Numbered from the stretch's first letter, positions 1-13,276 are shown. The stretch: 13,787 nucleotides of DNA from a virus (IMGVR_UViG_3300036943_000626:1-13787), one strand, 5' to 3'. The notes: generated from the sequence alone by a model not told the origin. Numbers and translations: made by a program.

Positions 1-127
1 TAAGGCTTACAAATTCAGGTTTGGCTGTTCTTCGAATCCCGATTGCTGTCAATCATTACAAAAAGAAAACTGATGGCGAAAGAGTTGAGGAATCCCATTT
101 TTTTCAAGTTATTTTCTTTGGAAAACT
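1..127. repeat. Terminal overlap copy A, identical to 13661..13787 (127 nt); indicates circular closure or terminal redundancy with a unit length of 13,660 bp
   Basis: Compared base by base: taaggcttacaaattcaggtttggctg...attttctttggaaaact occurs at both window ends with no mismatch. Confidence 0.95.
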
Positions 128-368
128 TGCTGAAACTGTTGAAAAATACATGGTTAAAGGTCAAGTCATGCTTGTTGAAGGAAGATTATCAACCTCAAAA
201 TATACAGACAAAGAAGGGATTGAAAGATATACAACCGAGATAATTGCTGATACAATGCAAATGGGAGCTAAACCTATGAAAAATCAAAATTTTTCATCAC
301 CCGAAACATCACCTCAAAAAACCTCCGAACCTGACGACGATATAAAAATTGAAGATATACCATTTTAA
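1..368 (+). CDS. ssb: Single-stranded DNA-binding protein, 3' portion (codon phase: first full codon starts at base 3)
   Basis: OB-fold-like core (HFFQVIFFGKLAE...GQVMLVEGRLSTSKYTDKEG...TEIIAD), a Ser/Pro-rich linker, and an acidic C-terminal tip DDDIKIEDIPF resembling the bacterial SSB tip DDDIPF. Confidence 0.85.
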   Translation, partial: RLTNSGLAVLRIPIAVNHYKKKTDGERVEESHFFQVIFFGKLAETVEKYMVKGQVMLVEGRLSTSKYTDKEGIERYTTEIIADTMQMGAKPMKNQNFSSPETSPQKTSEPDDDIKIEDIPF

Positions 369-406
369 GATTTAAAAAAGTGTAGTATTAAAATAATTGA
401 GGAATA

Positions 407-613
407 ATGAAAAAAATAATAAAATCAACTCACAACTCAATGCCTCACATATTAGCTTCTTGTTGTTGTGGCTGGATGGGTGGAGGGAATAATAATATCA
501 CAGAAGCTAGGAGAGAGCTTTTCTCACATATGAGAAAAAATAATTGCAAAACAGCCAGATTAGAAATAGGGAGAGTTTCGCATTATGAGTTAATAATTAA
601 ATCAAAATTATGA
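407..613 (+). CDS. Hypothetical small early protein (68 aa, CCCGW motif)
   Basis: ORF with GAGGA 5 nt upstream of the ATG, the only clear Shine-Dalgarno in the genome. Its stop overlaps the next start (ATGA). Confidence 0.6.
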   Translation: MKKIIKSTHNSMPHILASCCCGWMGGGNNNITEARRELFSHMRKNNCKTARLEIGRVSHYELIIKSKL

Positions 614-840
614 GTTTTCAGCCTGCTGGTGGAAACCGACAAAATCCACACACTCCGCCACGTGGAAAAAAAATCTGCCCTTTTATGTCTAGCGGAAAAG
701 ATATTGTTCCTTGCTCTCCTGATTGTATGCTTTACAGAGAGGGAAAACAAGGATCAAAATATCAATGTCCATTTCAAGAATTACCAAATATGTCTTGGAA
801 TATGTCCGTTGCATTAAAAAATCATACTAACGGATTCTAA
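610..840 (+). CDS. Hypothetical Cys-containing small protein (76 aa; CPF..C...C..CPF spacing, possible metal-binding)
   Basis: ATGA-coupled to the upstream ORF and followed by a terminator. Four Cys arranged C-x11-C-x3-C-x13-C, with CPF repeated. Confidence 0.55.
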   Translation: MSFQPAGGNRQNPHTPPRGKKICPFMSSGKDIVPCSPDCMLYREGKQGSKYQCPFQELPNMSWNMSVALKNHTNGF

Positions 841-854
841 TTTTACCCCTATTT

Positions 855-891
855 AAAAAACCGCCCCTATTGGTCATTGAGGCGGTTTTTT
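855..891 (+). terminator. Intrinsic terminator closing the early operon
   Basis: aaaaaaccgcc / 15-nt loop / ggcggtttttt: an 11-bp stem with a T-run, 15 nt after the stop at 840. Confidence 0.75.
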
Positions 892-895
892 AATT

Positions 896-927
896 AAAAA
901 AAAACACCTCCGAAGAGGTGTTTTTTT
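896..927 (-). terminator. Intrinsic terminator for the minus-strand gene (bidirectional in form)
   Basis: A9-cacctc-cgaa-gaggtg-T7. On the minus strand the hairpin directly follows the stop at 931 and is followed by a U-run. Confidence 0.8.
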
Positions 928-930
928 CTT

Positions 931-1206
931 TTACATTTTTTGAACCAAATCTCCGTTGAAGACAACTGCTATTCCAAAATTTCTTTTTTCTTTTTCTTTT
1001 GTTTTTTTGTCTTTTGTTTCTCCAATTTTCCAAATTCTCACACCCTTTCCTTTTGCTCCAACCAATTTCAAGCCCAACATTCTTGCTTGAACAAAAGTGA
1101 TCCATTCGTTGCTTTTATATCCCTCATTTTCTTTGACTTCTTGAAGAACATCCTGATTTCTCCCTTGATACTCTTTTTTTGACATTTTGTTTATTTGTTG
1201 TTTCAT
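931..1206 (-). CDS. Small ArdC-N / DUF1738-like protein (putative ssDNA-binding or anti-restriction), 91 aa
   Basis: EGYKSNEWITFVQARMLGLKLVGAKGKGVRIW...IAVVFNGDLVQ resembles, from memory, the ArdC N-domain hallmark W-x-T-F-x-Q-A-x-x-L-G-x-x-V-x-K-G-x-K-G ... V-F-N-x-x-Q. It is the only minus-strand gene and has its own terminator. Confidence 0.5.
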   Translation of the reverse strand: MKQQINKMSKKEYQGRNQDVLQEVKENEGYKSNEWITFVQARMLGLKLVGAKGKGVRIWKIGETKDKKTKEKEKRNFGIAVVFNGDLVQKM

Positions 1207-1274
1207 TTTTTTTATTTAAATTTTTATTAAAAAAAATGTTTCATAGGCAATTTTCTTAATTCTTATGTCTGTTA

Positions 1275-1367
1275 TTAAACAACTGATTGCTTATATCAAA
1301 TCAAGGTGGAGATTGACGAACAGAGTGAAGTCAATACTACCTTGAATTGATATAAGCTGTTGTTAAA
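1275..1367. repeat. Long imperfect inverted repeat (about 93 nt, over 30 bp of pairing) in the divergent intergenic region
   Basis: gcttatatcaaatcaaggt (1289-1307) pairs with accttgaattgatataagc (1339-1357) with one mismatch. There is an inner attgac/gtcaat pair and an outer aacaac/gttgtt pair. Confidence 0.8.
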
Positions 1368-1393
1368 ATAAAAAGACTAAGAATTAAAAAAAC

Positions 1394-1422
1394 TTGACTT
1401 ATTATTTGCTTTAATTTAAAAT
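1394..1422 (+). promoter_or_regulatory. Sigma70-type promoter TTGACT-17-TAAAAT
   Basis: TTGACT at 1394-1399, a 17-nt spacer, TAAAAT at 1417-1422. It lies about 175 nt upstream of the 1599 ATG. Confidence 0.6.
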
Positions 1423-1457
1423 GTTGATAACTAAAGAAAGAAGAAGCAAGAAAGAAA

Positions 1458-1507
1458 GCTAGACATTCTTCTAGCGATCCTTTCGACTCGTCTAGCTAGA
1501 AGCTAGT
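1458..1507. promoter_or_regulatory. Cluster of CTAG-centred palindromes in the 5' leader (candidate operator or structured leader)
   Basis: gctaga-cattct-tctagc hairpin at 1458-1475, a perfect 10-bp palindrome tctagctaga at 1491-1500, gctagt at 1502, and actagac at 1538. Confidence 0.45.
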
Positions 1508-1598
1508 AAGCGAAACCTATTCTATGAGTTTTTTTTACTAGACTTTCTTCTCTCTTTCATTCTTTTTTTAAATTTTTTTAACAAACTAACATCTAACC

Positions 1599-2192
1599 AT
1601 GACTAAACCCGCAAACGAACCAAACGACAAACTTTCTCCCAAAAACTTGACTTCAACTTTCCCGAATTCTCCTCTCTGTCGTTCTTCTTGTATCACTTGC
1701 AGTTCTCCTTATTTACAAGAAATTCATAAAATGAGGTATGATGATAAAATGTATTTAAAAGATATTTCCGCGAAATTAGAAAAAGAATTTGGCGAAAAAA
1801 TCTCTTATTCTGCTTTACATAGGCATTTTACTAACTTTAATAAAAATATAAAAAGGGCTGTCGAAACTAAAATGATTAAATATCTTGAAGAAGATGTTGA
1901 CCAACGGGCGCAACATTCTGCTAAATTGACAACTTTGATTAATGCTATGTTTGACAAATTGGCTCAAAACTGGCAAGATGTTGCACCAACTATTGAAAAC
2001 TTGGAAAAATTGACAAAATTGAGATATTTGGTTATGGAAAATAAAATTTCAATGGGTGATTATGATGAACAAATTAAGTTGATTATTAAAAATGCTGAAA
2101 ATGTTGATGCAAGACAATTAAGTTTATTTTCCCCCGAAGCAATTACTCAAAAACCAGAAGAAGAAAACAGAGGGGTTGCTGACGAGCAATAA
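1599..2192 (+). CDS. Zn-ribbon + helix-turn-helix-like DNA-binding protein; positional candidate for small terminase subunit or late regulator
   Basis: CRSSCITC followed by YLKDISAKLEKEFGEKISYSALHRHFTNF (Cys cluster plus an IS..AL.RH HTH-like pattern seen in some phage TerS or regulator proteins), a coiled-coil-like middle and an acidic tail. It is the last ORF before TerL. Confidence 0.45.
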   Translation: MTKPANEPNDKLSPKNLTSTFPNSPLCRSSCITCSSPYLQEIHKMRYDDKMYLKDISAKLEKEFGEKISYSALHRHFTNFNKNIKRAVETKMIKYLEEDVDQRAQHSAKLTTLINAMFDKLAQNWQDVAPTIENLEKLTKLRYLVMENKISMGDYDEQIKLIIKNAENVDARQLSLFSPEAITQKPEEENRGVADEQ

Positions 2193-2230
2193 AACCTAAA
2201 AGGGGGTTTGGGGGAAGCCCCCATTAAGAA

Positions 2231-2292
2231 CCGCCGCTGAATTTTAAGGTTTTTTTCGAGGAGGGACGACGAGAAAAAAACCGTTAAGGCGG
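2231..2292. repeat. Stem-loop
   Basis: ggttttttt (2248-2256) pairs with aaaaaaacc (2274-2282), flanked by ttaa/ttaa and ccgcc/ggcgg. Confidence 0.7.
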
Positions 2293-2351
2293 AATGGAGG
2301 GGGTGAGCCGACCAGCGGGAGGCGAACAAGGAGCGTAGCGACCACCATTCC
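2291..2351. repeat. Stem-loop followed by the CCGACACACC tail
   Basis: ggaatggagg pairs with ccaccattcc (7+2 bp with one A.A mismatch). The loop carries GAGCGTAGCGACC. Confidence 0.6.
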
Positions 2352-2376
2352 CCGACACACCTTCGCCAAGGGGTAT

Positions 2377-2471
2377 GCGGGGAGGAAAGGAGGGGCTTGC
2401 CGGGCGAGAAAAAATAAGAAAAAGAGGAGCGAATGCGACCTTTTTCTTTTTTTCTCCTTTCCACTCCCCGC
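2377..2471. repeat. 95-nt two-tier hairpin with polypurine/polypyrimidine arms
   Basis: gcggggag..gaaag pairs with ctttcc.a.ctccccgc, and gagaaaaaataagaaaaagagg pairs with cctttttctttttttctc. The apical loop is agcgaatgcga. Confidence 0.75.
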
Positions 2472-2506
2472 AAAAAATGAGCGAATGACGAGTTTCAAAA
2501 CCCGAA

Positions 2507-2537
2507 CCTCCCCCGACCAAAGGCGGGGAGGGGGAGG
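2507..2537. repeat. Stem-loop
   Basis: cctccccc (2507-2514) pairs with gggggagg (2530-2537). Confidence 0.6.
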
Positions 2538-2546
2538 CAAAGTGAA

Positions 2547-2592
2547 GGGCGGGAGCGGAATTCAACAAAAACCTACATCTCCGCTCCCGCCC
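2547..2592. repeat. Stem-loop with a perfect 13-bp GC-rich stem
   Basis: gggcgggagcgga (2547-2559) pairs with tccgctcccgccc (2580-2592). Confidence 0.85.
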
Positions 2593-2687
2593 TGAACGGC
2601 AAGAGCGAACACCTTATTTTGAAATTTTTAAAACCAGTTACCCCCCTTGGGGGGGTTAGGGGGGGAATATGAAATAATTTTTTTATG

Positions 2688-2796
2688 TCGCACAACACAG
2701 ATTCTTGCGACATTATGGAAACAAACAAAAACCGACCCTCACAGGAAGCGGTTTTTGATTTGTTTCCAAATGTTTCGCAAAATCTATGTTGTGCGA
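2688..2796. repeat. 109-nt rod-like element: an outer helix of about 21 bp enclosing an 18-bp helix
   Basis: tcgcacaacacagattcttgcga (2688-2710) pairs with tcgcaaaatctatgttgtgcga (2775-2796) with one mismatch and one bulge. The inner pair is ggaaacaaacaaaaaccg (2717-2734) with cggtttttgatttgtttcc (2749-2767). Confidence 0.8.
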
Positions 2797-2801
2797 GTCA
2801 A

Positions 2802-2842
2802 GCCAATGAAACACAATATAAAATTTATAAAAATTCATTGGC
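2802..2842. repeat. Stem-loop
   Basis: gccaatgaa (2802-2810) pairs with ttcattggc (2834-2842); the loop is AT-rich. Confidence 0.7.
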
Positions 2843-2883
2843 GAAGACCTTGCATAAAAAAACACCTTGAGGGAGAGGGGTTT

Positions 2884-2908
2884 GGGGAGAACCGCAGTGG
2901 TTCTCCCC
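2884..2908. repeat. Stem-loop (10-bp stem, 5-nt loop)
   Basis: ggggagaacc-gcagt-ggttctcccc, followed by attttaaa. Confidence 0.8.
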
Positions 2909-2922
2909 ATTTTAAAGAGCGA

Positions 2923-2987
2923 GGGAAAAGAGGAAAAAAAACTGTTGTGTGTCTATCTTAACAACAGATTTTTTTGACTCTTTTCCC
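2923..2987. repeat. Long hairpin, paralog 1 (loop contains TATCTTA)
   Basis: gggaaaagag pairs with ctcttttccc, A-run with T-run, ctgttg with caacag. The loop is tgtgtctatcttaa. It is followed by GAGCCACCGC plus ttttatataaaaa. Confidence 0.85.
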
Positions 2988-3013
2988 GAGCCACCGCTTT
3001 TATATAAAAAAAT

Positions 3014-3080
3014 GAGCGTAGCGAACACCTTTTAAATATAAACTAATGGAGCGAAGCGACCACCTTTTATTATATAAAAA
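3014..3080 (+). repeat. Two tandem short units (35 and 32 nt), each with a GCGNAGC mini-hairpin, a GA(A/C)CACC tail and a TATA-type linker
   Basis: gagcgtagcgaacacc-ttttaaatataaactaatg (3014-3048) is followed by gagcgaagcgaccacc-ttttattatataaaaa (3049-3080). Confidence 0.75.
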
Positions 3081-3086
3081 GAGGGA

Positions 3087-3151
3087 GGGGATTTGAGAAA
3101 AAAAGACTGTTTCGCGTTTATCTTAGAAACAGCTTTTTTTCTCAATTCCCC
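3087..3151. repeat. Long hairpin, paralog 2 (loop contains TATCTTA)
   Basis: ggggatttgag pairs with ctcaattcccc, gagaaaaaaag with ctttttttctc, ctgtttc with gaaacag. The loop is gcgtttatctta. It is followed by GACCCACCGC plus ttaatataaaaa. Confidence 0.85.
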
Positions 3152-3178
3152 GACCCACCGCTTAATATAAAAAGAGGA

Positions 3179-3237
3179 GTGATATTAAAAAGCAAATGTC
3201 TTTTTTGGAAAAAAAGTCTTTTGCTTTTTAATATCAC
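3179..3237. repeat. Long hairpin with a perfect 18-bp outer stem
   Basis: gtgatattaaaaagcaaa pairs with tttgctttttaatatcac, followed by GACACACC plus tacttatataaaa. Confidence 0.85.
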
Positions 3238-3274
3238 GACACACCTACTTATATAAAAGATGAGCCAAAAATAG

Positions 3275-3318
3275 GGAAAAGGTAGTTGAGTTGGCGAAAC
3301 TACCTTTTCCTTTTTTTT
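3275..3318 (+). terminator. Strong intrinsic terminator at the 3' end of the hairpin array
   Basis: ggaaaaggtag - 14-nt loop - ctaccttttcc (perfect 11 bp) followed by T8. Confidence 0.8.
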
Positions 3319-3345
3319 GGCGAACACCTATTATTATGTTAAAAT
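3317..3345 (+). promoter_or_regulatory. Candidate extended -10 promoter for the TerL/structural operon
   Basis: TTGGCG (3317-3322), a 17-nt spacer, TGT-TAAAAT (3337-3345), about 25 nt upstream of the TerL ATG. Confidence 0.45.
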
Positions 3346-3370
3346 GCAAATATAAATTTAAAACTAAACT

Positions 3371-4774
3371 ATGATAGCATTAAAAGATAAAATTAGTTTT
3401 GCAACTAAATTCTTTGATGTTAATGAAGAATATTTAAAACTTAATAGACACTGGCAGTCTTTTGATTATTATGTTTTGGCTGGTGGTGATCCTGTTAAAT
3501 ATGAAAATATAGGTTCACACCCTGGGCAATTAGATTTTTTGATAAACTCAATACACACTGAAAACTTATTACATTCTGGTAACGGATTTGGTAAGACAGA
3601 TATTATTGCACGCAAGCACTTAGTTAAACACTTAATTCATTTTTATGATCCACTCTTAAAGAATATAGAATATAAAACTTTGAATATTGCTATTACTAGA
3701 GAGCAGGCTGAGTTAGTTCAAGATAGGATAATTCAGTTAGTTCGCATTTCTCCTTTGCTTGGTGATTGGTTTATTAAGAGATATGTTAAGTCGCCAGTTC
3801 CTGAAATAGAATTTATTAATGGTGGTAAGATAGAATTTAAAACTACTAAACGAAAGGCTGAATCTGTTGAAGGTCATCAGTATGGCTATATCTCTGCTGA
3901 TGAGATAGCACTTGAGCCACACTTAGAATTTATTAGAGAAAAGATATTGTTGCCACGATTAAGAAAGTTTGAAGATGGTCAATTAGATTGGTTTGCTACT
4001 CCGAAAGGATTTAATTCATATTATAGAATCATGCAACAGATAAAGAGATCTGGTGGCTTTGTTCGTTCTGGTTCTAGTTATGAGAATCCACACATCAATC
4101 ATAAACTTTTAGATTATATGATTAAGAATTGGAGTAAAGATAAAGTTAGACAAATTGTTTATGGTGAGTTTGTTGATAATGCTCAATTTATGTTTGCTAG
4201 TAGGATTGATAAACTTATTGATTATGATCTAGGCTTTGAGAAAGTTAAACCTGATTCTAAATATATTGAGGGTTGGGATTTGGCAAGAGGTAAGAAAGGA
4301 GAGCAAGCCGACAAGACTGTTGGTTTTAGAATAAGAAAAGGAAAGCCTAATGTTATTGTTGATTGTTTTGCTTTTCAACTTCCTTGGACTGAAGAAGAAA
4401 GATTAAATTTATTAAAAGATAATAAAGAAAAACATAATTCATCTACTGAAAGAGAAATAAGAAACAAACAAAAAGAATCTAATTCAGAATGTTATATAGA
4501 TTCAACTGGTGTTGGTGATACTTTATTTGGTATGCTTCAAGATGTTGCCCAACCTGTTGACTTTCGAGGAAAAAAAGATAAAATACTAGAGCATGCACAA
4601 GCTGTTATTGATGCCGGACTTATTAAATGTCCTTTTATTCCCGAGCTTGTGGAAGAATTAACTACTTATGAAAGAGATGATAAAAATCTACCAACTGATT
4701 ATGTTATGGCTTTTTGTATCGCTTGCTATTCTATTCCTGTATTGGATTCGTTTATTGGAACTGTTGACATATAA
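3371..4774 (+). CDS. terL: Terminase large subunit
   Basis: Walker A HSGNGFGKTD, Walker B-like YGYISADEIA, and C-terminal nuclease-type acidic motifs IEGWDLARG and YIDSTGVGD. 467 aa, directly upstream of the portal gene. Confidence 0.9.
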   Translation: MIALKDKISFATKFFDVNEEYLKLNRHWQSFDYYVLAGGDPVKYENIGSHPGQLDFLINSIHTENLLHSGNGFGKTDIIARKHLVKHLIHFYDPLLKNIEYKTLNIAITREQAELVQDRIIQLVRISPLLGDWFIKRYVKSPVPEIEFINGGKIEFKTTKRKAESVEGHQYGYISADEIALEPHLEFIREKILLPRLRKFEDGQLDWFATPKGFNSYYRIMQQIKRSGGFVRSGSSYENPHINHKLLDYMIKNWSKDKVRQIVYGEFVDNAQFMFASRIDKLIDYDLGFEKVKPDSKYIEGWDLARGKKGEQADKTVGFRIRKGKPNVIVDCFAFQLPWTEEERLNLLKDNKEKHNSSTEREIRNKQKESNSECYIDSTGVGDTLFGMLQDVAQPVDFRGKKDKILEHAQAVIDAGLIKCPFIPELVEELTTYERDDKNLPTDYVMAFCIACYSIPVLDSFIGTVDI

Positions 4775-4798
4775 TTAAATAAATTTTAATATGTTAAT

Positions 4799-5011
4799 AT
4801 GCAAGATTTAAATTCTTTATCTTTTTTGTCTTTAAAAAAAATGACAAAAAAAAACAAACAAGATTCAAAAAAAATTCTTACTTCCCTTTATACTGATTTA
4901 AACCATAACCGATTTTATATTGTCCGTTTTAAAAAAATTCCTAAATTTATTCCAAACTTTTTTTACAAATTTTTAATAAAAAGAATTCTTAATTTAGATT
5001 ATAAATGTTAA
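4799..5011 (+). CDS. Doubtful small basic ORF (70 aa)
   Basis: Lys-rich and low complexity. It overlaps the portal start (ATGTTAA), which would fit translational coupling, but composition alone could generate it. Confidence 0.3.
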   Translation: MQDLNSLSFLSLKKMTKKNKQDSKKILTSLYTDLNHNRFYIVRFKKIPKFIPNFFYKFLIKRILNLDYKC

Positions 5012-6342
5012 ACAAACAAGAAGTTTCCGAAGAATTACGGACTAAAATTCAATCAGTTAAATCTCTTACTAATAAGCGTGAGAATTATTTTAATAAATAT
5101 TTTTCTTTTGCTTTTAAAGGAAATCAATGGACTCAATCTGAATATAATGAATTAGTTGCAAAGGGTGTTGATCCAGTTACTCTTAATAATTCCGAAGATT
5201 ATTTTGAAGAATATTTATCAAAATTATTTCCTCGAGATCCAAATACCGGGACTTTGTCTATTGGTGTTTCTGCAAAAGATTTGGTCAATCGTGAAAAATA
5301 TGAAAATAAAATTCTCGAACAATATCGAGAAAATAATTTTCCTAGTGTTTTACTTGAACAAGGTCAAAATTTTTTAATTGGCGGTGCTGGTTGTTTTTAT
5401 TTTCCTCCCGACGGTTTTGGTGGTGCTAATATAATTTCTGTTGATCCTCGTTTTGTTTATCTTGAATGGTCTGGTCGTAGATTACTTTGGTTTGCCTACT
5501 ATAATGAAGATACTGAAACCTATACTTATGTTGATAAGGATTTTATTATAACTTTAGATAAAAATTTTGAAATTATTTCTGATCAAACTCATAAACTCGG
5601 CTTTATTCCTGTTGCTTGGGTTCCAAATATGCCTCAATCTCACACAATGGAGGGAAAAACAAAAATTGCTTCAATTTATGATTTAGATCGATCAATAAAT
5701 AAAAACTTTACTAATTACAATAAACGAATTGACGAAAATACCGAACCTCATCAAGCTGTTTATTCTGATAATGCTAAGGTAAAATCAATTAAAAGAGGAA
5801 AAGGAAAAACTACTATTTTACCTGTTGGCTCAAAAATGGAATATCTTGAACTCAAAGAGGGTTCTGAAATTCAAAATTACAATGAATATTTACAAGAAAA
5901 AATTCGGGCCAAGACTGGCCTTATAGATACTGGCGGTGCTGTTAAAACTGCAATTTCTGGTTTGTCTTTATCTTTTCAATATTCTGGGATGTTAAGCCGA
6001 ATTGCTTTTATGCGAGTTTATTGGGATCATGCTTTTAGACAATTAAATGAAGCTATTTTAACTTATGCTTTCCGTTCTGGTAATTTTGAAACTGATCCTA
6101 TCTATAATGAATCAATCGCAGTTGATATTTCTCAAAAAGTCAAAGATGTTATTGCTCAAGTTGAGGCTGGAATTATGAGTAGAAAAGATGCTATTGATAC
6201 TTTGCGAGGTTCTGAAAATTCTGAACAGAAATTAAAAGAAATTCTTGACGAGGAGAAAAAAATAAATGATAATAAACCAAAGGAACAAATAAAACAAGAT
6301 TTAATAATTAATAAAAATAAAGATGGATCAAAAAATTCTTGA
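5005..6342 (+). CDS. Portal protein (putative)
   Basis: 445 aa, located between TerL and the scaffold/capsid genes; called from size and position. Confidence 0.7.
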   Translation: MLNKQEVSEELRTKIQSVKSLTNKRENYFNKYFSFAFKGNQWTQSEYNELVAKGVDPVTLNNSEDYFEEYLSKLFPRDPNTGTLSIGVSAKDLVNREKYENKILEQYRENNFPSVLLEQGQNFLIGGAGCFYFPPDGFGGANIISVDPRFVYLEWSGRRLLWFAYYNEDTETYTYVDKDFIITLDKNFEIISDQTHKLGFIPVAWVPNMPQSHTMEGKTKIASIYDLDRSINKNFTNYNKRIDENTEPHQAVYSDNAKVKSIKRGKGKTTILPVGSKMEYLELKEGSEIQNYNEYLQEKIRAKTGLIDTGGAVKTAISGLSLSFQYSGMLSRIAFMRVYWDHAFRQLNEAILTYAFRSGNFETDPIYNESIAVDISQKVKDVIAQVEAGIMSRKDAIDTLRGSENSEQKLKEILDEEKKINDNKPKEQIKQDLIINKNKDGSKNS

Positions 6343-6910
6343 CACATTCAGAAAGCAATTTGCCCTGGATGAGGAAGCTCTGCCTGATTCAATGTCTACT
6401 GAAGATTTCAGCAAATTCATTGAAAATCAAGCCGGAAAACTTTTTGTCAAACCTCAAGATTTGAAAAATCTACAGAGGAAATTGAGTGAAAAAGATTTAA
6501 TGATTAAGGAATTGTCCGAAAAAAAATCTGACGACAAAAACCCTGATCCGAAACCTGATTCCAAAATTTCCGAACTAGAAAATCAAATTAAAACTCTGAC
6601 TGAATCAATTACCAAAATGACAAATTCTAGTCGAGTTGAAAAATTAACTGAAATGTATCCCGATATTTCACCTGAAATTTTGGCAAATACTAGCGACGAA
6701 AATCTTGAAAAAGTCGTTGAAAGTCAAAGGAAAATTAGTAAAAAGATTTATAAAGATTCTAAAGTTTTTACTTTACCTCAATATAAATCTATTTCTGATG
6801 TTGATAAGGCTATAGAAAAAGTTAAGGCTGATAAAAATTTATCTGCCATGGAAAAAGCCTCTGAAAGTTTGAAACTCCAAAGACTGAAAACGAGTTTTGA
6901 TTCTGAATAA
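6323..6910 (+). CDS. Scaffolding protein (putative)
   Basis: 195 aa, highly charged with a Lys/Glu/Asp-rich helical character, located between portal and major capsid. It overlaps the portal 3' end by 20 nt. Confidence 0.6.
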   Translation: MDQKILDTFRKQFALDEEALPDSMSTEDFSKFIENQAGKLFVKPQDLKNLQRKLSEKDLMIKELSEKKSDDKNPDPKPDSKISELENQIKTLTESITKMTNSSRVEKLTEMYPDISPEILANTSDENLEKVVESQRKISKKIYKDSKVFTLPQYKSISDVDKAIEKVKADKNLSAMEKASESLKLQRLKTSFDSE

Positions 6911-6941
6911 TTTTAATATAATCAATTAAAAAATTAAAAAA

Positions 6942-8081
6942 ATGTTTAATACTCAAAGTGTTCGAGAGAGAGAATCTCTTTCGGAGCAAGTGGATATTTT
7001 ACTGGCCAATGATCGAGACATGAAATTTTTGTCTTTTGTTAATCATTTGCGAGCTCCAAAATCTCCAATCATTGCTCAAAAACATGAATGGTTAGATATT
7101 TCCGCTCGACCTGTTGAAGTTACTTCTGGAACTTCTGGAACTGGTGTTTTGTGGGATTCTGCTTCTGCAACTGCTGATTTACCAATTAATTCATCTCATA
7201 CTGCTAAATTGCGAGAAGGTGATATTTTGCTTTTGGGGGATGGTTTGGAACAAGTTATTGTTAAATCTGTTGATACCGCGGCTAACACTATCGATGTTTA
7301 TGCTCGAGGTCATGGTTCAACTGATGGCGCTGCTCAAGGTGAAACTGCTTTCACAATCAAGATAATCGGAAATGCCCAAATCGAAGATGATGATCCAATA
7401 GATGCTTATTTCCAAGGATTCACTGCTGGATATAACTATACTCAAATTTTTGAAGATGTTGCTGATCAATCAGGAACAATTCGAAGATCTAGAGTAAGTG
7501 GAGGTGATACTCTTGATACTGCAATTATGGTTAAATTAAAGGAATTGATGAGGCAGTTGAATCGAGCTTGTATTTATGGAGTTAGGAATCTTGATACAAC
7601 TAACAAAATTGGCACAATGGGTGGTGTGAGAGAATTTTTCACAACTACCAAAAACATTAACGCCGCTTTGACTCTTGCTTTGCTTGAGGCTACTGTTGTT
7701 GAGGCTATAGACGCTGGTTGTAATCCTTCTGCAATTCATGCAAGTCCTGATATAATTTCTAAAATTTCTCAACTTTTCGTTGGAAATGTCAGATATCAAA
7801 CTACTGATAGACGAGCTGGTCTTTCTGTGGCTGTTGTGAATATGTCTGGTTTGGATATTATGCTTTTGCCTGATAGAGATGTTCCAAGTGGAGAAATGTT
7901 GTTAGTTGATCATGATAGAGTTTTCCTTGGTGCTTTAAATGGTAATGAGTCTGGGGATTGGGCTGTTTATGAGACTATGAACAAGAACTTGAAACAATGG
8001 GAGAAACAAGTTGGTGGAGAGTTCACAATGGAAGTTCGAAGCCCGGCTGGTGCTGGAGTTAGGGCTTATAATATAAGCTAG
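6942..8081 (+). CDS. Major capsid protein (putative HK97-fold)
   Basis: 379 aa, follows the scaffold gene, has less AT-skewed codon usage consistent with high expression, and is followed by a hairpin. Confidence 0.8.
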   Translation: MFNTQSVRERESLSEQVDILLANDRDMKFLSFVNHLRAPKSPIIAQKHEWLDISARPVEVTSGTSGTGVLWDSASATADLPINSSHTAKLREGDILLLGDGLEQVIVKSVDTAANTIDVYARGHGSTDGAAQGETAFTIKIIGNAQIEDDDPIDAYFQGFTAGYNYTQIFEDVADQSGTIRRSRVSGGDTLDTAIMVKLKELMRQLNRACIYGVRNLDTTNKIGTMGGVREFFTTTKNINAALTLALLEATVVEAIDAGCNPSAIHASPDIISKISQLFVGNVRYQTTDRRAGLSVAVVNMSGLDIMLLPDRDVPSGEMLLVDHDRVFLGALNGNESGDWAVYETMNKNLKQWEKQVGGEFTMEVRSPAGAGVRAYNIS

Positions 8082-8097
8082 AATTGAATGGTTTTTT

Positions 8098-8121
8098 GGC
8101 GGTTTTTCCATAAAAAACCGC
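8098..8121 (+). terminator. Hairpin after the capsid gene (terminator or attenuator candidate)
   Basis: gcggttttt-ccat-aaaaaaccgc; the downstream T-run is weak. Confidence 0.45.
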
Positions 8122-8151
8122 TTCTAAAATCATTAAATTTAAATTAAAATT

Positions 8152-8346
8152 ATGGCAATTTTTAGACGAAGAAGTAAAGATTTAGAGGGTATTTCCAGTA
8201 CTGTTGTTGCTGGAAAAGAAATCAAGTTAATGGGTAATCAAGTTTATAAAACTAAAAATCCCAAAGAAATAAAGGCTTTAAGAGAGGATAGTGTTTTTTT
8301 TGAACTTCCTGTTAAACTTAAAGTAAAAGCTACTAAAAAAGATTAA
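8152..8346 (+). CDS. Hypothetical small structural-module protein (64 aa)
   Basis: ORF in the structural operon with basic termini. Confidence 0.55.
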   Translation: MAIFRRRSKDLEGISSTVVAGKEIKLMGNQVYKTKNPKEIKALREDSVFFELPVKLKVKATKKD

Positions 8347-8355
8347 TAAAATATC

Positions 8356-8958
8356 ATGACATTTAATGAAATGGAGGCCAAAATTCAGGCTCAAATTGAC
8401 GACACAACCACAAGTATTGACGAAATGATTTATAATTCCATTCGGTATTTATATAATTATTTTGCGCTTGAAGATTGGGATGACGCTTTGGTGACTGTTG
8501 CTGATCAAAATTTTATTGAAACTGGCCTCTCTGATGTTATTGATGTTGATGTTTTGATTTATAATGGTGAACAGATTGAAAAACTTGATGAAGATGATTT
8601 TGATAAAATTCCTCAATTTGTTGATAATAATGTTAGGCGATTTTATTTTCTTCAAGGTAAAATTTATTTTACTTTCACTCCGACAGAATCTGATTTAGAG
8701 GTTAAGGTTTTGAAGAAATATCAGTTTACTTTAGCAACTACAACAAATTCTCTAGATGTTCCTCCTGAACTTCTCGAACTGGTTGAACTTGGGGCTATTT
8801 CAAGATATTATTTATATTTACTTTCATTAAATGCAAGATCAAGAGAAGACTTGCCTGATGTCAAACCTGATGAGGTTCGGCGGGCTAAAAAGAATGTTGA
8901 TGATAGTTATAATTATCTTCTTAATGAGCTTCGTAATAATTCCAATTATGCGTTATAA
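8356..8958 (+). CDS. Hypothetical structural protein (possible head-tail adaptor, by position)
   Basis: 200 aa, acidic, located between the capsid and tail genes. Confidence 0.6.
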   Translation: MTFNEMEAKIQAQIDDTTTSIDEMIYNSIRYLYNYFALEDWDDALVTVADQNFIETGLSDVIDVDVLIYNGEQIEKLDEDDFDKIPQFVDNNVRRFYFLQGKIYFTFTPTESDLEVKVLKKYQFTLATTTNSLDVPPELLELVELGAISRYYLYLLSLNARSREDLPDVKPDEVRRAKKNVDDSYNYLLNELRNNSNYAL

Positions 8959-10468
8959 AGAAATTGTTTTTAAAAATGTTGAAGATGGAATTTCTGATAA
9001 TCAACTTCAATTAGAAACTAGTAAAAATAATATTATCAAAGGACTTATTGATTCTGATTCTATAATTCCTTCTCCTAATACTTCTTCTCCTATTTTGAAT
9101 CGTCTTTTTGAAGTTAAAAAAACTATTTCTGGTGTTTCTTATTCTATTGATGAGGTTCTTTATAATGCTAGTGCTTTTTTTATTAAAGAAGGAACTTTAT
9201 TTAAAGCTACTTTAAATAATACTGATAATCATGTTCATCTTTATAAACTTTTAAATGATTCTGATGATGATACTTTTGATTATGTTGGAGATGCTGGTGA
9301 AGCTGATTTGATTACTGGTGCTTTTTCTATTCAAAATAAAATTGTTGTTTTTGGAGATTTTGCTTCTGGTCATTTATGTAAGGTTTCTGAGGATAATGGT
9401 TTAACTTGGTCTGGTTTTGACCCTCAATATTCTGGCTCTGATATTCTTATTCATCCTGCTAAACCTGTTTATAAAAATGGAAAATATTATTTTCATGAAT
9501 CCTTTCCTGGTTTTAGCACAAATCCAGCCTATCGTCGTATTTATACTACTACTGATTTTACAACTTTTACTAAAATTCATGATTCAGATCCCGGTCCTTG
9601 GGAAATAACATATATGTTTCAGTTTTTGGATGATATTTATATTGTTGAAGACAAAACGACTGGTATAGGTTCTAATGTTCGTAATTCAACAACTAAATTA
9701 TCTCGTTATGATGAAATTAATGATACTTTTGAGCTCATTAAGTTTGTTAATAATGTTCAATTTAGTGTTACTAATTTTTTTGTTTTTCAAGATAAGATTT
9801 GCTCTATTTTTTCTGATGGTCGTAATCGTCGTTTATGGATGTTTGATGGTATGAATTCTACTTATAAATCAATGGAAAAAAATCAAGATCTTAAAGATAA
9901 AGCTAATAGAATATACGGCGTTAGTGATGATTATTTATATTGGAGTGATGGTAGTGATGATATTCATGTTATTGATAAAAATTTTTCATATTTTAGAAAT
10001 TTTTTAAAAATTTCTGATTTTTTAAATACTAATGAAGATCGTCAAGATTTTATTGTTTATCAAGATAATATTTTCGTTTCAACTTATAACAGTGATACTG
10101 ATGATGAGAGAATTTTTCACTTTTCTTCTGATAAAATAATTGCTTCTGGTTCTTTTGTTTTTCCTACAATTAAAAATAATCAAATTATTCCCAAGCAAAT
10201 TATCTTATATCATAAAGAATTAGGAACTGGTTCTAAAATAGAAATTTATTATTCAACCGAAGATCATCCTATAGATGGATTTACTTATACAAAATTAGGT
10301 GAGGAAACTGTTGCTGGTGCTACTCGTTATGTTTTGGATTTTCCTTCTGGTCTGGTCTTTAATAGAATTACTTTTAAGGTTATAATTTATGATGATACAA
10401 ATAATTTGATTGGAGTTGATGATTTAACTTTAAAATTTTTGTATACAGTTAAAAATTTAGATAAATAA
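8948..10468 (+). CDS. Tail or receptor-binding protein with an Asp-box (BNR) motif; probable beta-propeller
   Basis: I prefer the ATG at 8948 (MRYKEIVFKNVEDG), which gives an 11-nt overlap, over the track start at 8831, which gives a 128-nt overlap. SEDNGLTW at 9385-9408 matches S-x-D-x-G-x-T-W. Confidence 0.65.
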   Translation: MRYKEIVFKNVEDGISDNQLQLETSKNNIIKGLIDSDSIIPSPNTSSPILNRLFEVKKTISGVSYSIDEVLYNASAFFIKEGTLFKATLNNTDNHVHLYKLLNDSDDDTFDYVGDAGEADLITGAFSIQNKIVVFGDFASGHLCKVSEDNGLTWSGFDPQYSGSDILIHPAKPVYKNGKYYFHESFPGFSTNPAYRRIYTTTDFTTFTKIHDSDPGPWEITYMFQFLDDIYIVEDKTTGIGSNVRNSTTKLSRYDEINDTFELIKFVNNVQFSVTNFFVFQDKICSIFSDGRNRRLWMFDGMNSTYKSMEKNQDLKDKANRIYGVSDDYLYWSDGSDDIHVIDKNFSYFRNFLKISDFLNTNEDRQDFIVYQDNIFVSTYNSDTDDERIFHFSSDKIIASGSFVFPTIKNNQIIPKQIILYHKELGTGSKIEIYYSTEDHPIDGFTYTKLGEETVAGATRYVLDFPSGLVFNRITFKVIIYDDTNNLIGVDDLTLKFLYTVKNLDK

Positions 10469-11293
10469 ATGTTTAATGGTCGTTTTTATAGATTGTTTGT
10501 TAAGATTTACGAAGCCCTTCTTAAAATTGCTGATAATATTTTAGCAACTACTTATAACGATTCTTGGATAAATATTACTTCTTCTGTTACTTATTCAAGT
10601 GTTGATGATCCAACTGGAGTTATAACTATTGAAGAGGATTTAACTGGAGTTCTTTCAGTTGGGATGAGAATAAAATTCACTAATGGCGGAAACACAATTT
10701 ACGGAATTATTACTAAAGACCCAACCTATTCCTCACCAAACACAACAATAACTTTTCTACACGAAATTAACCCAACAGATTCTCAAGCTCTTCACTTACT
10801 AGCTAATTCAGCAATTACAGATGTCTATTATTCACACCAAAAAGCACCGTTTGGTTTTCCTTTGGAGAAGAATAAATGGACGGTTTATATTTCTAGTTCT
10901 GGGCAAATAGACCAATTAAACCCGACACAAAATACTTGGTATAATATTAATTCGGATTCCTTGTCTATACCGATAGGAACTTATTTGGTGTATTATTCCA
11001 CCCACGCTGGTATCGAGACATCTGCAGATTATATCTACGATATGGAGGTGACTTTATCTACTGGCTCTTCTTCAGAAAGTGATGGAGATTTATCCGCTGG
11101 GTTTGGCTCTGATATTTCGGGAAATACAGCGTTAAAACGTATGCGTTCAACTGTTTCTCGACAAAAAGAAAAGACTTTCGCTAGCAAAACAACTGTTTAT
11201 CTAAATTATAGAACAATAAGAAGTTCTATAGATAAAATTAGTAAAATAGGAGAAGTACCAACTGTTATTAGAGCAACTTCTTCCTATCTGTAA
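10469..11293 (+). CDS. Putative tail or receptor-binding protein (274 aa)
   Basis: The ATG immediately follows the upstream TAA. The protein is Ser/Thr/Asn-rich and beta-like, and is the last structural gene. Confidence 0.55.
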   Translation: MFNGRFYRLFVKIYEALLKIADNILATTYNDSWINITSSVTYSSVDDPTGVITIEEDLTGVLSVGMRIKFTNGGNTIYGIITKDPTYSSPNTTITFLHEINPTDSQALHLLANSAITDVYYSHQKAPFGFPLEKNKWTVYISSSGQIDQLNPTQNTWYNINSDSLSIPIGTYLVYYSTHAGIETSADYIYDMEVTLSTGSSSESDGDLSAGFGSDISGNTALKRMRSTVSRQKEKTFASKTTVYLNYRTIRSSIDKISKIGEVPTVIRATSSYL

Positions 11294-11413
11294 TATAATT
11301 AAATAATCGAAGATAATAACTAATACTCATAAACAACACAGAAACCAGAACACCAGGTTCAAAACTAACAAAATGTTCGGAGATAATATGTATGTAAAAA
11401 ATAATTAAAAACA

Positions 11414-11536
11414 ATGAAACTGTTATACTTTTTATTAGGATGGTGTAAATATTATAATAAATGCGGTTCAGATTGCCACACTTGTCGAAATGGTGGCGGT
11501 TCGTACTGTGGTAAATTTAGAGAATTAAATAAATAA
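11414..11536 (+). CDS. Candidate 40-aa Cys-rich peptide with a hydrophobic N-terminus (below the ORF-track cutoff)
   Basis: MKLLYFLLGWCKYYNKCGSDCHTCRNGGGSYCGKFRELNK, read by hand. It ends 9 nt before the endolysin ATG. Confidence 0.35.
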   Translation: MKLLYFLLGWCKYYNKCGSDCHTCRNGGGSYCGKFRELNK

Positions 11537-11545
11537 TTCAAAATC

Positions 11546-12181
11546 ATGAATCTATCAAAACCATTTCAAGGATCTTATCCAATTACTCAATATTTTGGTG
11601 AAAAATATGAATATAATGGAAAGGTATTAAATCACGAGGGTGTAGATTTTGCGACGCCCAAAAATACCCCTATTATTGCTCCTATGGATGGAGTAGTATA
11701 TAGAATCGAAAAATGGAGGCTAACTGGCTATGGAAAAACAGTCTATGTTCGAGGTTTAGACGGTGTTTCTACTTATTTTGTTGCTCATTTAAACTCTATT
11801 AATGTTGAATTAAATCAAAGAGTTTATAAAAATGGGACTATACTCGGCCACTCTGGCCGGACTGGATTCTGGCGAGGTAAAACTGGCTATCATTTACATT
11901 TTTCCTTGTTAATCAATAATAAATATGTTGATCCATTAAATTATATGGAAGGCTATAAAAATAATTTAATAAACAACGAAGAATTAAAAAAGCTCGATGT
12001 AAAGAATAATGACGACCGATATTATAAAGTTAAAAAAGGTGAAAGTCTTTGGATTATAGCTGGAAAACTTTATGGAGATAATAACAAATGGTTTGAAATT
12101 TATAATGAAAATAAAAAATTAATTGGTGATAATCCTGATCTAATTTACCCTGGGCAGAGATTAAGACTACCAAAAAAATGA
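11546..12181 (+). CDS. Endolysin: M23 (LytM-type) metallopeptidase plus a C-terminal LysM domain
   Basis: M23 motifs HEGVDF (H-x-x-x-D) and GYHLHFS (H-x-H). The C-terminus YYKVKKGESLWIIAGKLYGDNNKWFEIYNENKKLIGDNPDLIYPGQRLRLP is LysM-like. Confidence 0.85.
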   Translation: MNLSKPFQGSYPITQYFGEKYEYNGKVLNHEGVDFATPKNTPIIAPMDGVVYRIEKWRLTGYGKTVYVRGLDGVSTYFVAHLNSINVELNQRVYKNGTILGHSGRTGFWRGKTGYHLHFSLLINNKYVDPLNYMEGYKNNLINNEELKKLDVKNNDDRYYKVKKGESLWIIAGKLYGDNNKWFEIYNENKKLIGDNPDLIYPGQRLRLPKK

Positions 12182-12447
12182 ATATAAATTTTACTGCAAA
12201 TTATCCAATAAAAAATTTTGACGAACTGGAAAATTATTTAAAAATTCCAAGAAAATTTAATGGTATAACAGTCAATTTTTTTTACAAAGAAAATTATGTT
12301 AATATCTGGTTTCATCATAATTCTTTTGTTCTTGAAATTGATAATGATAATGAATTTGATCCTCCCTCTATTTATAAGGAACTTGGGACTTCTTTTGATG
12401 TCGTTGACGAGATTAAAAAATTTTTTGAAAAGATTGACAAAAAATAA
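12178..12447 (+). CDS. Hypothetical protein (89 aa)
   Basis: ATGA-coupled to the endolysin gene. Confidence 0.6.
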   Translation: MNINFTANYPIKNFDELENYLKIPRKFNGITVNFFYKENYVNIWFHHNSFVLEIDNDNEFDPPSIYKELGTSFDVVDEIKKFFEKIDKK

Positions 12448-12474
12448 TAAATTGTTAAAATTAAATAGAGAAAC

Positions 12475-12594: not shown

Positions 12595-12603
12595 TTTCTT
12601 TTT

Positions 12604-12915: not shown

Positions 12916-12918
12916 CTC

Positions 12919-13274: not shown

Positions 13275-13276
13275 TT

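What the first reader, a model, noticed from the sequence alone, without database searches (positions are those of the whole stretch)
2923..3151. Two paralogous 65-nt hairpins keep the loop TATCTTA while their stems change in a compensatory way
Seen in the sequence: hairpin 2923-2987 has inner stem ctgttg/caacag and loop tgtgtcTATCTTAa. Hairpin 3087-3151 has ctgtttc/gaaacag and loop gcgttTATCTTA. Both have an A7-8/T7 middle helix, but their basal helices differ and each is self-complementary (gggaaaagag/ctcttttccc versus ggggatttgag/ctcaattcccc). Pairing is kept despite sequence divergence, and the loop is conserved. Inference: this is the pattern of selection on a folded nucleic acid whose loop is read by a partner.
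Basis: seen in the sequence. Interest (0 to 1): 0.62.

Follow-up and report, generated by a model that had tools for sequence, protein, structure and literature searches.

The report
Conserved-loop hairpins in phage array

Summary
H1 (2923-2987) and H2 (3087-3151) fold far better than shuffled sequence.

I found eight more distinct hairpins of this type upstream of the terminase large subunit gene (TerL) in two related phage lineages. Across all ten:
- The loop G-N-G-T-Y-W-A-T-C-T-T-A is 90% identical on average; the stems are 52% identical.
- 97% of inner-stem cells pair, and 6 of 7 pairs show changes on both sides.
- G·T wobbles occur only on the + strand.

The window is a complete 13.66-kb short-tailed phage, probably of Patescibacteria, with no recognisable replication enzyme. 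The hairpins are one module type in a + strand array. Each unit reads GA-[hairpin]-GA-NN-CACC-..-TATATAAAA, and long hairpins share their slot with GCGNAGC mini-hairpins. The array lies in a 1.18-kb gene-free stretch between the TerS-like gene and TerL, and every relative examined keeps such a stretch.

Function is inferred only:
- Single-stranded-DNA signals in a replication or priming region, about 0.4.
- Sense-RNA elements, about 0.35.
- Packaging or genome-end signals, about 0.12.

Nothing matched in Rfam. Earlier notes of this scan on the same window describe the array; none reports this hairpin family on other DNA.

The parts
2923..2987 (+). Hairpin H1: 10-bp basal helix, GA/GA internal loop, A7:T7 helix, 7-bp inner stem, 12-nt loop GTGTCTATCTTA (2949-2960)
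   Evidence: The ortholog in L028 (259-324) has loop GTGTCAATCTTA.
3087..3151 (+). Hairpin H2, a paralog of H1, with 12-nt loop GCGTTTATCTTA (3114-3125)
   Evidence: It scores 75 bits with the family model R1, which was built partly from it.
2917..2922 (+). 5' flank GAGCGA. Every hairpin of the array is preceded by GA and followed by GA, which could form tandem G.A pairs.
   Evidence: Read from the sequence and from the linker list.
2988..3010 (+). Linker box after H1: GAGCCACCGCTTTTATATAAAAA
   Evidence: Five boxes lie on the + strand of the gene-free stretch and none on the - strand.
3016..3022 (+). Mini-hairpin GCGTAGC in the slot that long hairpins occupy in other units
   Evidence: The motif is described in PMC13037366.
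3023..3045 (+). Linker box GAACACCTTTTAAATATAAACTA
3051..3057 (+). Mini-hairpin GCGAAGC
3058..3079 (+). Linker box GACCACCTTTTATTATATAAAA
3152..3173 (+). Linker box after H2: GACCCACCGCTTAATATAAAAA
3179..3237 (+). Hairpin H3 in the same array slot; its loop is GGA, not the TATCTTA loop
   Evidence: (inverted repeat I7).
3238..3258 (+). Linker box GACACACCTACTTATATAAAA
3264..3321 (+). Hairpin H4 in the same array slot, with a different loop and one G.T wobble on the + strand
   Evidence: (inverted repeat I19).
3322..3345 (+). Last box. It is the only one that passes the sigma-70 scan (TTGGCG-17-TAAAAT with TG) and it ends 25 nt before the TerL ATG at 3371.
   Evidence: The L029 lineage has CACCTGTGTTATGAT at the same place.
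2193..3370 (+). Gene-free, relatively GC-rich hairpin region between the TerS-like gene and TerL that holds the array
   Evidence: Every relative examined has a comparable gene-free stretch here.

Best explanation
H1 and H2 belong to a family of + strand hairpin signals. A stem of about 26 bp, free to change as long as it pairs, holds out a fixed 12-nt T-rich loop (G-N-G-T-Y-W-A-T-C-T-T-A) that a trans-acting factor reads.

They are one module type in a modular array. Each unit is GA-[hairpin]-GA-NN-CACC-..-TATATAAAA, and a long hairpin can be replaced by a GCGNAGC mini-hairpin. The array sits in the 1.18-kb gene-free stretch between the TerS-like gene and TerL.

Most likely mechanism (inferred, not shown): the stretch is the replication and priming region of a phage that has no replication enzymes of its own. 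The hairpins would act on the + strand when it is single-stranded DNA, either displaced during replication or displaced in an R-loop. The stem would keep SSB off, and the loop would be offered to a host primase or RNA polymerase as a start site. This is how the G4 complementary-strand origin, RSF1010 ssiA and the mitochondrial OriL work.

Shown here: the hairpins, the conserved loop, the covariation, the strand specificity, the array grammar and its presence in relatives.

For: - Structure and covariation.
- Strand specificity: all 10 hairpins fold better on the + strand. There are 10 G.T wobbles on the + strand folds (6 of them independent) and none on the - strand folds.
- Array grammar: the linker box is found only on the + strand of the stretch.
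- DNA-type loops: GCGNAGC occurs 39 times on the + strand and 0 on the - strand in 11.6 kb of these stretches from 12 relatives, against 13 and 4 in the other 88.7 kb.
- Loop choice in GC-containing hairpins: GNA triloops 15 to 0 between strands, GNRA tetraloops 1, UNCG tetraloops 0.
- The review PMC13037366 states that GCGNAGC mini-hairpin DNA occurs at the G4 priming site, in RSF1010 ssiA and in N4 promoters, and that the RNA versions are much less stable.
- OriL precedent: a stem-loop that excludes mtSSB and starts primers at a T-stretch in its loop (PMC4256270).
- Gene content: two of the few recognisable non-structural genes are an SSB and an ArdC-N-type single-stranded-DNA-binding domain. 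No polymerase, primase, helicase, Rep or integrase was found.
- DnaA boxes: perfect TTATCCACA boxes lie 54-175 nt upstream of TerL in three more distant relatives.
- GC skew is positive on the + strand over most of the genome.
Against: - No direct evidence exists that this strand is ever single-stranded DNA, or that priming occurs here.
- The + strand is also the sense strand of all flanking genes, so an RNA with the same hairpins almost certainly exists, and G.U pairs fit RNA at least as well.
- CTTG loops, a stable RNA tetraloop class by my own recollection, are the commonest tetraloop in these stretches.
- The window's own stretch has no DnaA box.
- GC skew is confounded by transcription direction.
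- The mini-hairpin argument concerns the neighbouring units, not H1 and H2 themselves.
- Tailed dsDNA phages are not known to depend on hairpin priming signals of this type.
Confidence: 0.4

Rival explanations
1. The hairpins work as RNA. The stretch is transcribed in the sense direction, either by read-through from the TerS-like gene or from the AT-rich boxes acting as activator-dependent late promoters that start at the GA before each hairpin. The hairpins would then be cis- or trans-acting RNA elements, and their loop would bind a protein or a complementary RNA. Possible roles are antitermination (as with nut or put sites), RNase III processing or 5'/3' end protection, or small decoy or antisense RNAs released by cuts in the AU-rich linkers.
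For: - The folding strand is the sense strand, and G.U pairs occur only on it.
- No intrinsic terminator follows the TerS-like gene.
- The stems are about 26 bp, the size RNase III needs.
- The inner stem followed by a U5-7 run is conserved (alignment A2) and looks like a weak terminator.
- The last box sits where the TerL promoter should be and has an extended -10.
- CUUG-type loops are common in relatives.
- The loop contains a YUNR-type CUUA, a motif I recall as common in antisense RNAs.
Against: - There is no Rfam match at or near a gathering score.
- The internal boxes lack a -35, while the phage's other promoters are canonical TTGACA/TATAAT.
- No conserved complementary target was found. 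AAGATAAA near the TerL start is explained by coding and does not track the hairpins.
- GNA triloops and 2-bp GCGNAGC units are poor RNA structures.
- G.U pairs make up only about 3% of pairs.
- In L006, L008, L066 and L068 a terminator-like hairpin and a sigma-70-like -35/-10 pair (TTGACT... in L006/L008/L068, as read from the sequence; not run through the promoter scan) separate the stretch from TerL, so it is not simply the TerL leader.
Confidence: 0.35
2. The hairpins are DNA-level packaging or genome-end signals. The stretch next to the terminase genes would hold the pac or cos site, or the physical ends of the virion DNA. The palindromes would be extruded or bound by TerS/TerL, and hairpins would take part in end processing, as proposed for T7 concatemer junctions.
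For: - The stretch lies between the TerS-like gene and TerL.
- A sequence-conserved long palindrome (2688-2796) is present in all relatives and looks like a protein-binding site.
- Assemblies of relatives often break in this stretch.
Against: - Binding to double-stranded DNA does not explain strict strand asymmetry (G.T only on the + strand; GNA 15 to 0).
- It also does not explain covarying arms around a non-palindromic centre.
- Copy number differs between contigs that encode the identical TerL.
- Known pac sites usually lie inside or upstream of terS (my own knowledge).
- The 127-nt end overlap of the record lies inside the ssb gene and is an assembly overlap, not a mapped terminus.
Confidence: 0.12
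3. The array is a stack of promoter/stem-loop cassettes of the PeSL type, left over from gain and loss of small genes. Its main effect would be transcriptional insulation and recombination, and the loop would be conserved only because the copies are young.
For: - AT-rich box plus stem-loop units are repeated in tandem, with G-run/C-run stems in relatives, as described for PeSLs (PMC2839356).
- The order and number of units differ between closely related contigs.
Against: - Stems have diverged to 52% mean identity, and as low as 31%, while the loop stays at 90%, so the copies are not young.
- There are no ORFs between units.
- The internal boxes lack a -35.
- The stretch is kept in every lineage of a phage with a very small genome.
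Confidence: 0.08

Closest known systems
Single-strand initiation hairpins: G4 complementary-strand origin, RSF1010 ssiA/ssiB, mitochondrial OriL
   Same: These are strand-specific hairpins whose stem excludes SSB and whose loop or 3' flank is the start site for a primase or RNA polymerase. GNA-type mini-hairpins are typical of such sites (PMC13037366). OriL starts primers at a T-stretch in its loop (PMC4256270). The elements they serve rely on host enzymes.
   Different: No priming has been shown here. The elements form a tandem array of 4-8 heterogeneous units in a tailed dsDNA phage. The loop sequence has no known counterpart. The window's stretch has no iterons, no DnaA box and no plasmid-type primase.
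PeSL (promoter-early stem-loop) cassettes of T4-type phages (PMC2839356)
   Same: Both are repeated composite units of an AT-rich promoter-like sequence plus a stable stem-loop, often with G-run/C-run stems. In both, unit content differs between near-identical phages, which suggests recombination between units.
   Different: PeSLs carry consensus -35/-10 promoters, flank small ORFs and are scattered through the genome. Here the internal boxes lack a -35, there are no ORFs, the units are strictly tandem and on one strand, and one hairpin class keeps a 12-nt loop.
RNase III processing hairpins between phage T7 genes, and nut/put antitermination hairpins of lambdoid phages
   Same: These are hairpins of about 60 nt, or smaller protein-binding hairpins, in sense transcripts between or ahead of phage operons. 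Their stems covary and their loops or internal loops are conserved.
   Different: This comparison rests on my recollection only. No cleavage or antitermination has been shown here, no boxA or N-like protein is present, and the 12-nt loop is unlike boxB.
Integron attC sites
   Same: Both are arrays of hairpins that conserve structure but not sequence and act as single-stranded DNA on one strand.
   Different: There is no integrase, no R/L core sites and no gene cassettes between the hairpins.

Membership tests
Any Rfam 15 family | Covariance-model score at or above the family's gathering score | tested here: not met
   The only overlapping hits are microRNA, sRNA and leader models at 21-31 bits against thresholds of 60-80, which is generic long-hairpin noise.
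Intrinsic (Rho-independent) terminator | GC-rich stem with a 3-8-nt loop, followed directly by a U-tract | tested here: not met
   flags nothing at H1 or H2. The full hairpins are followed by GAGCCACC and GACCCACC, and the loop is 12 nt.
Intrinsic (Rho-independent) terminator | Sub-element: inner stem followed by a run of U | tested here: inconclusive
   All 10 family members have T5-7 within 1-5 nt after the inner stem, and columns 48-53 are nearly invariant T. The stem is AT-rich and the loop is long.
PeSL promoter/stem-loop cassettes | Consensus sigma-70 -35 and -10 in each unit | tested here: not met
   Only the last box (3317-3345) passes the scan. Canonical promoters exist elsewhere in the genome (1394 by the scan; about 12784 and 12919 read from the sequence).
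PeSL promoter/stem-loop cassettes | Units flank small ORFs | tested here: not met
   There is no credible ORF between units, and only 26-29 nt separate neighbouring hairpins.
PeSL promoter/stem-loop cassettes | Repeated AT-rich box plus stem-loop, with unit content shuffled between close relatives | tested here: met
   Short-read misassembly of repeats could contribute to the apparent shuffling.
Single-strand initiation signals (G4 origin, ssiA/B, sso, OriL) | Hairpin that functions on one strand only | tested here: inconclusive
   G.T wobbles and better folding occur only on the + strand, and GNA loops run 15 to 0. This shows strand-specific folding but does not separate DNA from RNA.
Single-strand initiation signals (G4 origin, ssiA/B, sso, OriL) | Primer synthesis starts in or beside the hairpin on SSB-coated DNA | not testable with these tools
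   This needs biochemistry or mapping of nascent strands.
Single-strand initiation signals (G4 origin, ssiA/B, sso, OriL) | Lies in a replication origin | tested here: inconclusive
   Perfect DnaA boxes lie in the homologous stretch of L020, L021 and L023, but none in the window. No origin has been mapped.
Integron attC | Integron integrase nearby and conserved R/L core sites | tested here: not met
   No integrase was found in the whole genome. The flanks are GA...GA-NN-CACC, not the attC core sites as I recall them.
Rolling-circle double-strand origin (HUH Rep nick site in a hairpin loop) | A Rep/HUH endonuclease gene in the element | tested here: not met
   No such domain appears in any ORF, even at E up to 1. 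The resemblance of TTATCTT to nick sites of the pC194 type is only my recollection.
Antisense RNA with a kissing loop | A conserved complementary target that co-occurs with the hairpin | tested here: not met
   The best candidate, AAGATAAA at TerL codons 5-7, is also present in L035, which lacks the hairpin, and absent in L028, which has it.

The most novel reading that the evidence does not exclude
A family of 13-15-kb tailed phages, probably infecting Patescibacteria, encodes no replication enzymes. Instead it carries a roughly 1-kb cassette array of + strand DNA hairpins with three components: twin G-runs, GNA mini-hairpins and conserved-loop hairpins such as H1 and H2. The array would recruit host enzymes for R-loop or DnaA-dependent initiation and for hairpin-loop priming of the displaced strand. 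That would be a plasmid- or mitochondrion-style replication strategy in a tailed dsDNA phage.
Probability: 0.3. Interest if true: 0.8.

Novelty: new variant of a known kind. Interest (0 to 1): 0.6.

Why it matters
The phage spends 8.6% of a 13.66-kb genome on gene-free hairpins, and every relative examined keeps such a stretch, so it very probably does something other phages do with proteins.

The H1/H2 family gives a clean handle on that function. It has a fixed 12-nt loop, freely covarying stems, a defined strand and a defined slot in a modular array. Loop, stem and compensatory mutants can therefore be designed directly.

If the hairpins are DNA priming signals, they would show how a minimal tailed phage of ultra-small bacteria replicates using host enzymes alone. 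If they are RNA, they define a new phage RNA motif with an unknown reader. In either case the motif is absent from Rfam.

Tried and rejected
- **tRNA, tmRNA and Rfam:** nothing credible.
- **Homologs elsewhere in IMG/VR:**
  - Two pattern scans gave 4 and 27 hits. I checked one of the first four (L012), which lies in coding sequence, and folded all 27 of the second scan. None of those forms the hairpin.
  - The family model R1 found no further true members in 20 loci.
  - TerL relatives at 64-69% identity lack the loop motif.
- **TerL-based scans:**
  - The GTDB genome scan found nothing.
  - The first IMG/VR scan found nothing.
  - The JGI metagenome scan found two contigs of the L029 lineage.
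  - The major capsid protein had no match in the GenBank phage collection.
- **Antisense target:** complementarity to the TerL start is explained by coding and does not co-occur with the hairpin.
- **DnaA box in or near the loops:** none in the window's stretch.
- **Rolling-circle nick site:** no Rep gene.
- **Intrinsic terminator or sigma-70 promoter at H1/H2:** not supported.
- **CRISPR-like or toxin-antitoxin type III-like repeat array:** considered because of the 35-nt unit spacing, and dropped. There are no cas or toxin genes and the units are irregular.
- **PDB sequence searches of three unannotated proteins:** uninformative.
- **Nearest-neighbour folding of the mini-hairpins:** it does not predict them, as the review warns.

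Full report
**1. The observation**

The window is a whole virus record. Bases 1-127 repeat at 13661-13787, which gives a 13,660-bp circle or an assembly overlap that falls inside the ssb gene.

- As RNA they fold at -29.4 and -34.3 kcal/mol (z -7.9 and -8.6), and 0 of 200 shuffles fold as well.
- As DNA they fold at -19.6 and -22.2 kcal/mol (z -6.8 and -8.7).
- In both, the inner stem is 7 bp and the loop is 12 nt: GTGTCTATCTTA and GCGTTTATCTTA.
- TATCTTA occurs three times in the genome, twice in these loops.
- The two copies are 83% identical in the loop and 67% elsewhere, so they are not a recent duplication.

**2. What surrounds them**

The genome is a small short-tailed phage. Recognisable genes:

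| Gene | Coordinates |
|---|---|
| Mu-gp27/TerS-like | 1599-2192 |
| TerL | 3371-4774 |
| SPP1-type portal | 5005-6342 |
| SU10-type major capsid protein | 6942-8081 |
| SU10-type adaptor | 8356-8958 |
| M23 + LysM lysin | 11546-12181 |
| SSB | across the record ends |
| ArdC-N-like domain (the only minus-strand gene) | 931-1206 |

No polymerase, primase, helicase, Rep or integrase appears, even at permissive thresholds.

Capsid and TerL relatives are numerous contigs of 12-15 kb. Several sit in bins labelled Patescibacteria, Moranbacteria, Parcubacteria or Peribacteria. The host assignment rests on those labels alone.

H1 and H2 lie in a 1,178-nt stretch with no credible ORF (2193-3370). It has 40-55% G+C in a genome of about 30%, and almost every base of it is in a hairpin.

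**3. The array grammar**

From 2917 to 3345 the + strand reads as repeated units: GA-[hairpin]-GA-NN-CACC-N2-3-TT-N-TATATAAAA-(N)-GA-[next hairpin].
- The hairpin slot holds, in order: H1, GCGTAGC, GCGAAGC, H2, H3 (3179-3237) and H4 (3264-3321).
- The linker box occurs five times on the + strand of the stretch and never on the - strand.
- The internal boxes have no -35, whereas the phage's other promoters are canonical TTGACA/TATAAT.
- Only the last box passes the sigma-70 scan. It has a TG-extended TAAAAT that ends 25 nt before the TerL ATG.

**4. Homologs**

Every relative examined has a comparable gene-free stretch between the TerS-like gene and TerL. I retrieved the closest accessible TerL relatives by exact-protein look-up.
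- L028 (TerL 78% identical) has an ortholog of H1 with loop GTGTCAATCTTA, followed by the same two mini-hairpin units.
- Contigs L029-L034, L064 and L065 belong to one lineage. L029-L034 encode the identical TerL protein (73% identical to the window); L064 and L065 match at 73% and 76% in the best segment. They carry one to four hairpins with loops G(T/C/A)GTTTATCTTA and quite different stems.
- In total there are ten distinct hairpins. They align on the loop without gaps.
- Eight of 12 loop positions are invariant. Mean pairwise identity is 0.90 in the loop and 0.52 outside it, with a minimum of 0.31.
- On the 7-bp inner stem, 97.1% of cells pair against 65.5% after shuffling. Six of 7 pairs change on both sides.
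- The covariation score is 0.83 against 0.24 shuffled, and 0 of 500 shuffles reach it. Sliding the partner columns gives at most 0.18.
- RNAalifold finds compensatory changes in 17 of 23 pairs.

The family is narrow.
- Relatives with TerL at 64-69% identity lack it.
- A family model finds no new members in 20 loci.
- Pattern scans of IMG/VR gave no further member. I checked one of the four hits of the first scan and all 27 of the second, and none forms the hairpin.
- L035 (TerL 72%) has hairpins of the same build with other loops. One contains TTTATCT.

**5. Which strand, and RNA or DNA?**

All ten hairpins fold better on the + strand.
- The + strand folds contain 10 G.T wobbles, six of them independent. 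The - strand folds contain none.
- H1 has a GA/GA internal loop that would be TC/TC on the other strand.

The fold therefore belongs to one strand. That argues against a purely double-stranded palindrome or a symmetric cruciform.

The + strand is also the sense strand of all flanking genes. An RNA copy probably exists, and these data alone do not separate RNA from single-stranded DNA.

Evidence that leans to DNA:
- GCGNAGC occurs 39 times on the + strand and 0 on the - strand in 11.6 kb of these stretches from 12 relatives. In the other 88.7 kb of the same loci the counts are 13 and 4.
- Among GC-containing hairpins, GNA triloops run 15 to 0 between strands, against one GNRA and no UNCG tetraloop.
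- GCGNAGC, with any base at N, is the very stable mini-hairpin DNA motif. It is found at the G4 priming site, in RSF1010 ssiA and in N4 hairpin promoters, and its RNA versions are much weaker (PMC13037366).
- In the window these mini-hairpins fill the same slot as H1 to H4.
- The phage encodes an SSB and an ArdC-N-type single-stranded-DNA-binding domain, and no replication enzyme.
- Three more distant relatives carry perfect DnaA boxes 54-175 nt upstream of TerL, inside the homologous stretch.

Evidence that leans to RNA:
- The hairpins lie on the sense strand and contain G.U pairs.
- CTTG tetraloops are frequent.
- The stems have the length RNase III needs.
- The inner stem followed by a U-run is conserved.
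- The last box is promoter-like.

**6. Mechanism**

I commit, at about 0.4, to single-stranded-DNA signals of a host-dependent replication or priming region. The stem would exclude SSB, and the T-rich 12-nt loop would be offered to a primase or RNA polymerase. This follows the logic shown for mitochondrial OriL (PMC4256270) and proposed for the G4 origin. This step is inference, and nothing here shows priming.

The other readings:
- Sense-RNA elements, about 0.35.
- Packaging or genome-end signals, about 0.12.
- Inert PeSL-like cassette scars, about 0.08. This reading is disfavoured by the contrast between loop and stem conservation.

**7. Comparison with known systems**

No Rfam family matches. 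The hairpins fail the tests I could run for several known kinds:
- an intrinsic terminator or a sigma-70 promoter;
- an attC site or a rolling-circle nick site, since there is no integrase or Rep;
- an antisense RNA, since no co-occurring target was found.

The array most resembles two known things.
- Single-strand initiation hairpins, in logic and in loop chemistry.
- PeSL promoter/stem-loop cassettes of T4-type phages, in layout and apparent shuffling (PMC2839356). A note from another window of this scan led me to that paper.

The array differs from both. It is strictly tandem, has no ORFs, lies on one strand, and includes a hairpin class with a fixed 12-nt loop.

**8. Limits**

- Near-identical relatives of the window are withheld by the tools.
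- Differences in unit number between contigs that encode the same TerL may be partly assembly artefacts at repeats. One relative has an N-gap there, and many contigs break there.

Noticed in passing
window 2202-2222, 2641-2665, 2877-2909, and the homologous stretches of the relatives: Twin G-runs (G4-8, 2-3 nt, G4-8), usually next to a C-run that can pair with either G-run, occur 38 times on the + strand and 2 times on the - strand of the TerS-TerL gene-free stretches of 12 relatives. The rest of those loci has 2 and 0. Two G-tracts on the non-template strand recall R-loop or hybrid G-quadruplex elements of ColE1 and mitochondrial origins; that comparison is from my own memory and untested.
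   Followed up: partly
window 2688-2796: The 109-nt palindrome has a sequence-conserved base (TCGCACAA..TTGCGAC / GTTGCAAAAT..TTGTGCGA) in the relatives whose stretch reaches it (L006, L008, L010, L018-L023, L028, L033, L065, L066, L068; only its 3' end in L035, and not obvious in L067 or L069). Its apex differs completely yet still pairs. It is a candidate protein-binding site, for an origin or pac site, or a conserved RNA.
   Followed up: partly
L020 3812, L023 3893, L021 3783-3860: Perfect DnaA boxes (TTATCCACA) lie 55, 54 and 175 nt upstream of TerL in three distant relatives, and L021 has two more near-perfect boxes within 70 nt. None is present in the window's stretch.
   Followed up: partly
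gene-free stretches of 12 relatives: GCGNAGC mini-hairpin motifs occur 39 times on the + strand and 0 on the - strand, often in runs such as GAGCGAAGCGAAGCGTAGCGAG in L020 and L023.
   Followed up: yes
L029-L034, L064, L065: Contigs from one lineage (L029-L034 encode the identical TerL protein; L064 and L065 match at 73-76%) carry between one and four TATCTTA hairpins and different numbers of mini-hairpin units. This is either real array turnover between strains or repeat collapse in short-read assemblies.
   Followed up: partly
window 1-13787: This is a complete 13.66-kb tailed-phage genome with no recognisable polymerase, primase, helicase, Rep or integrase. It does carry an SSB and a 91-aa ArdC-N-like domain. 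It belongs to a large family of 12-15-kb contigs, some of them in Patescibacteria bins.
   Followed up: partly
window 12784-12812, 12919-12950, 1394-1422: Canonical TTGACA/TATAAT promoters precede the early region and the TerS-like gene. The host RNA polymerase therefore seems to use ordinary sigma-70 signals, unlike the boxes in the array.
   Followed up: no
L006 6290-6420, L008 3815-3935, L068 1560-1650: In more distant relatives the array units are G5-6..C5-6 hairpin, then ATATAAAAAA, then a GC hairpin with a GAA loop, then a T-run. These look like tandem bidirectional terminators. As read from the sequence, a sigma-70-like -35/-10 pair follows just before TerL (TTGACT in L006, L008 and L068; L066 reads TTGACTC); the promoter scan was not run on these loci.
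   Followed up: no
L035 594-659, 700-770, 890-960: Hairpins of the same build as H1 and H2 (GA flanks, A-run:T-run helix, loop of 11-14 nt) carry other loop sequences. One loop contains TTTATCT. They may be diverged members of the family or other classes of it.
   Followed up: no
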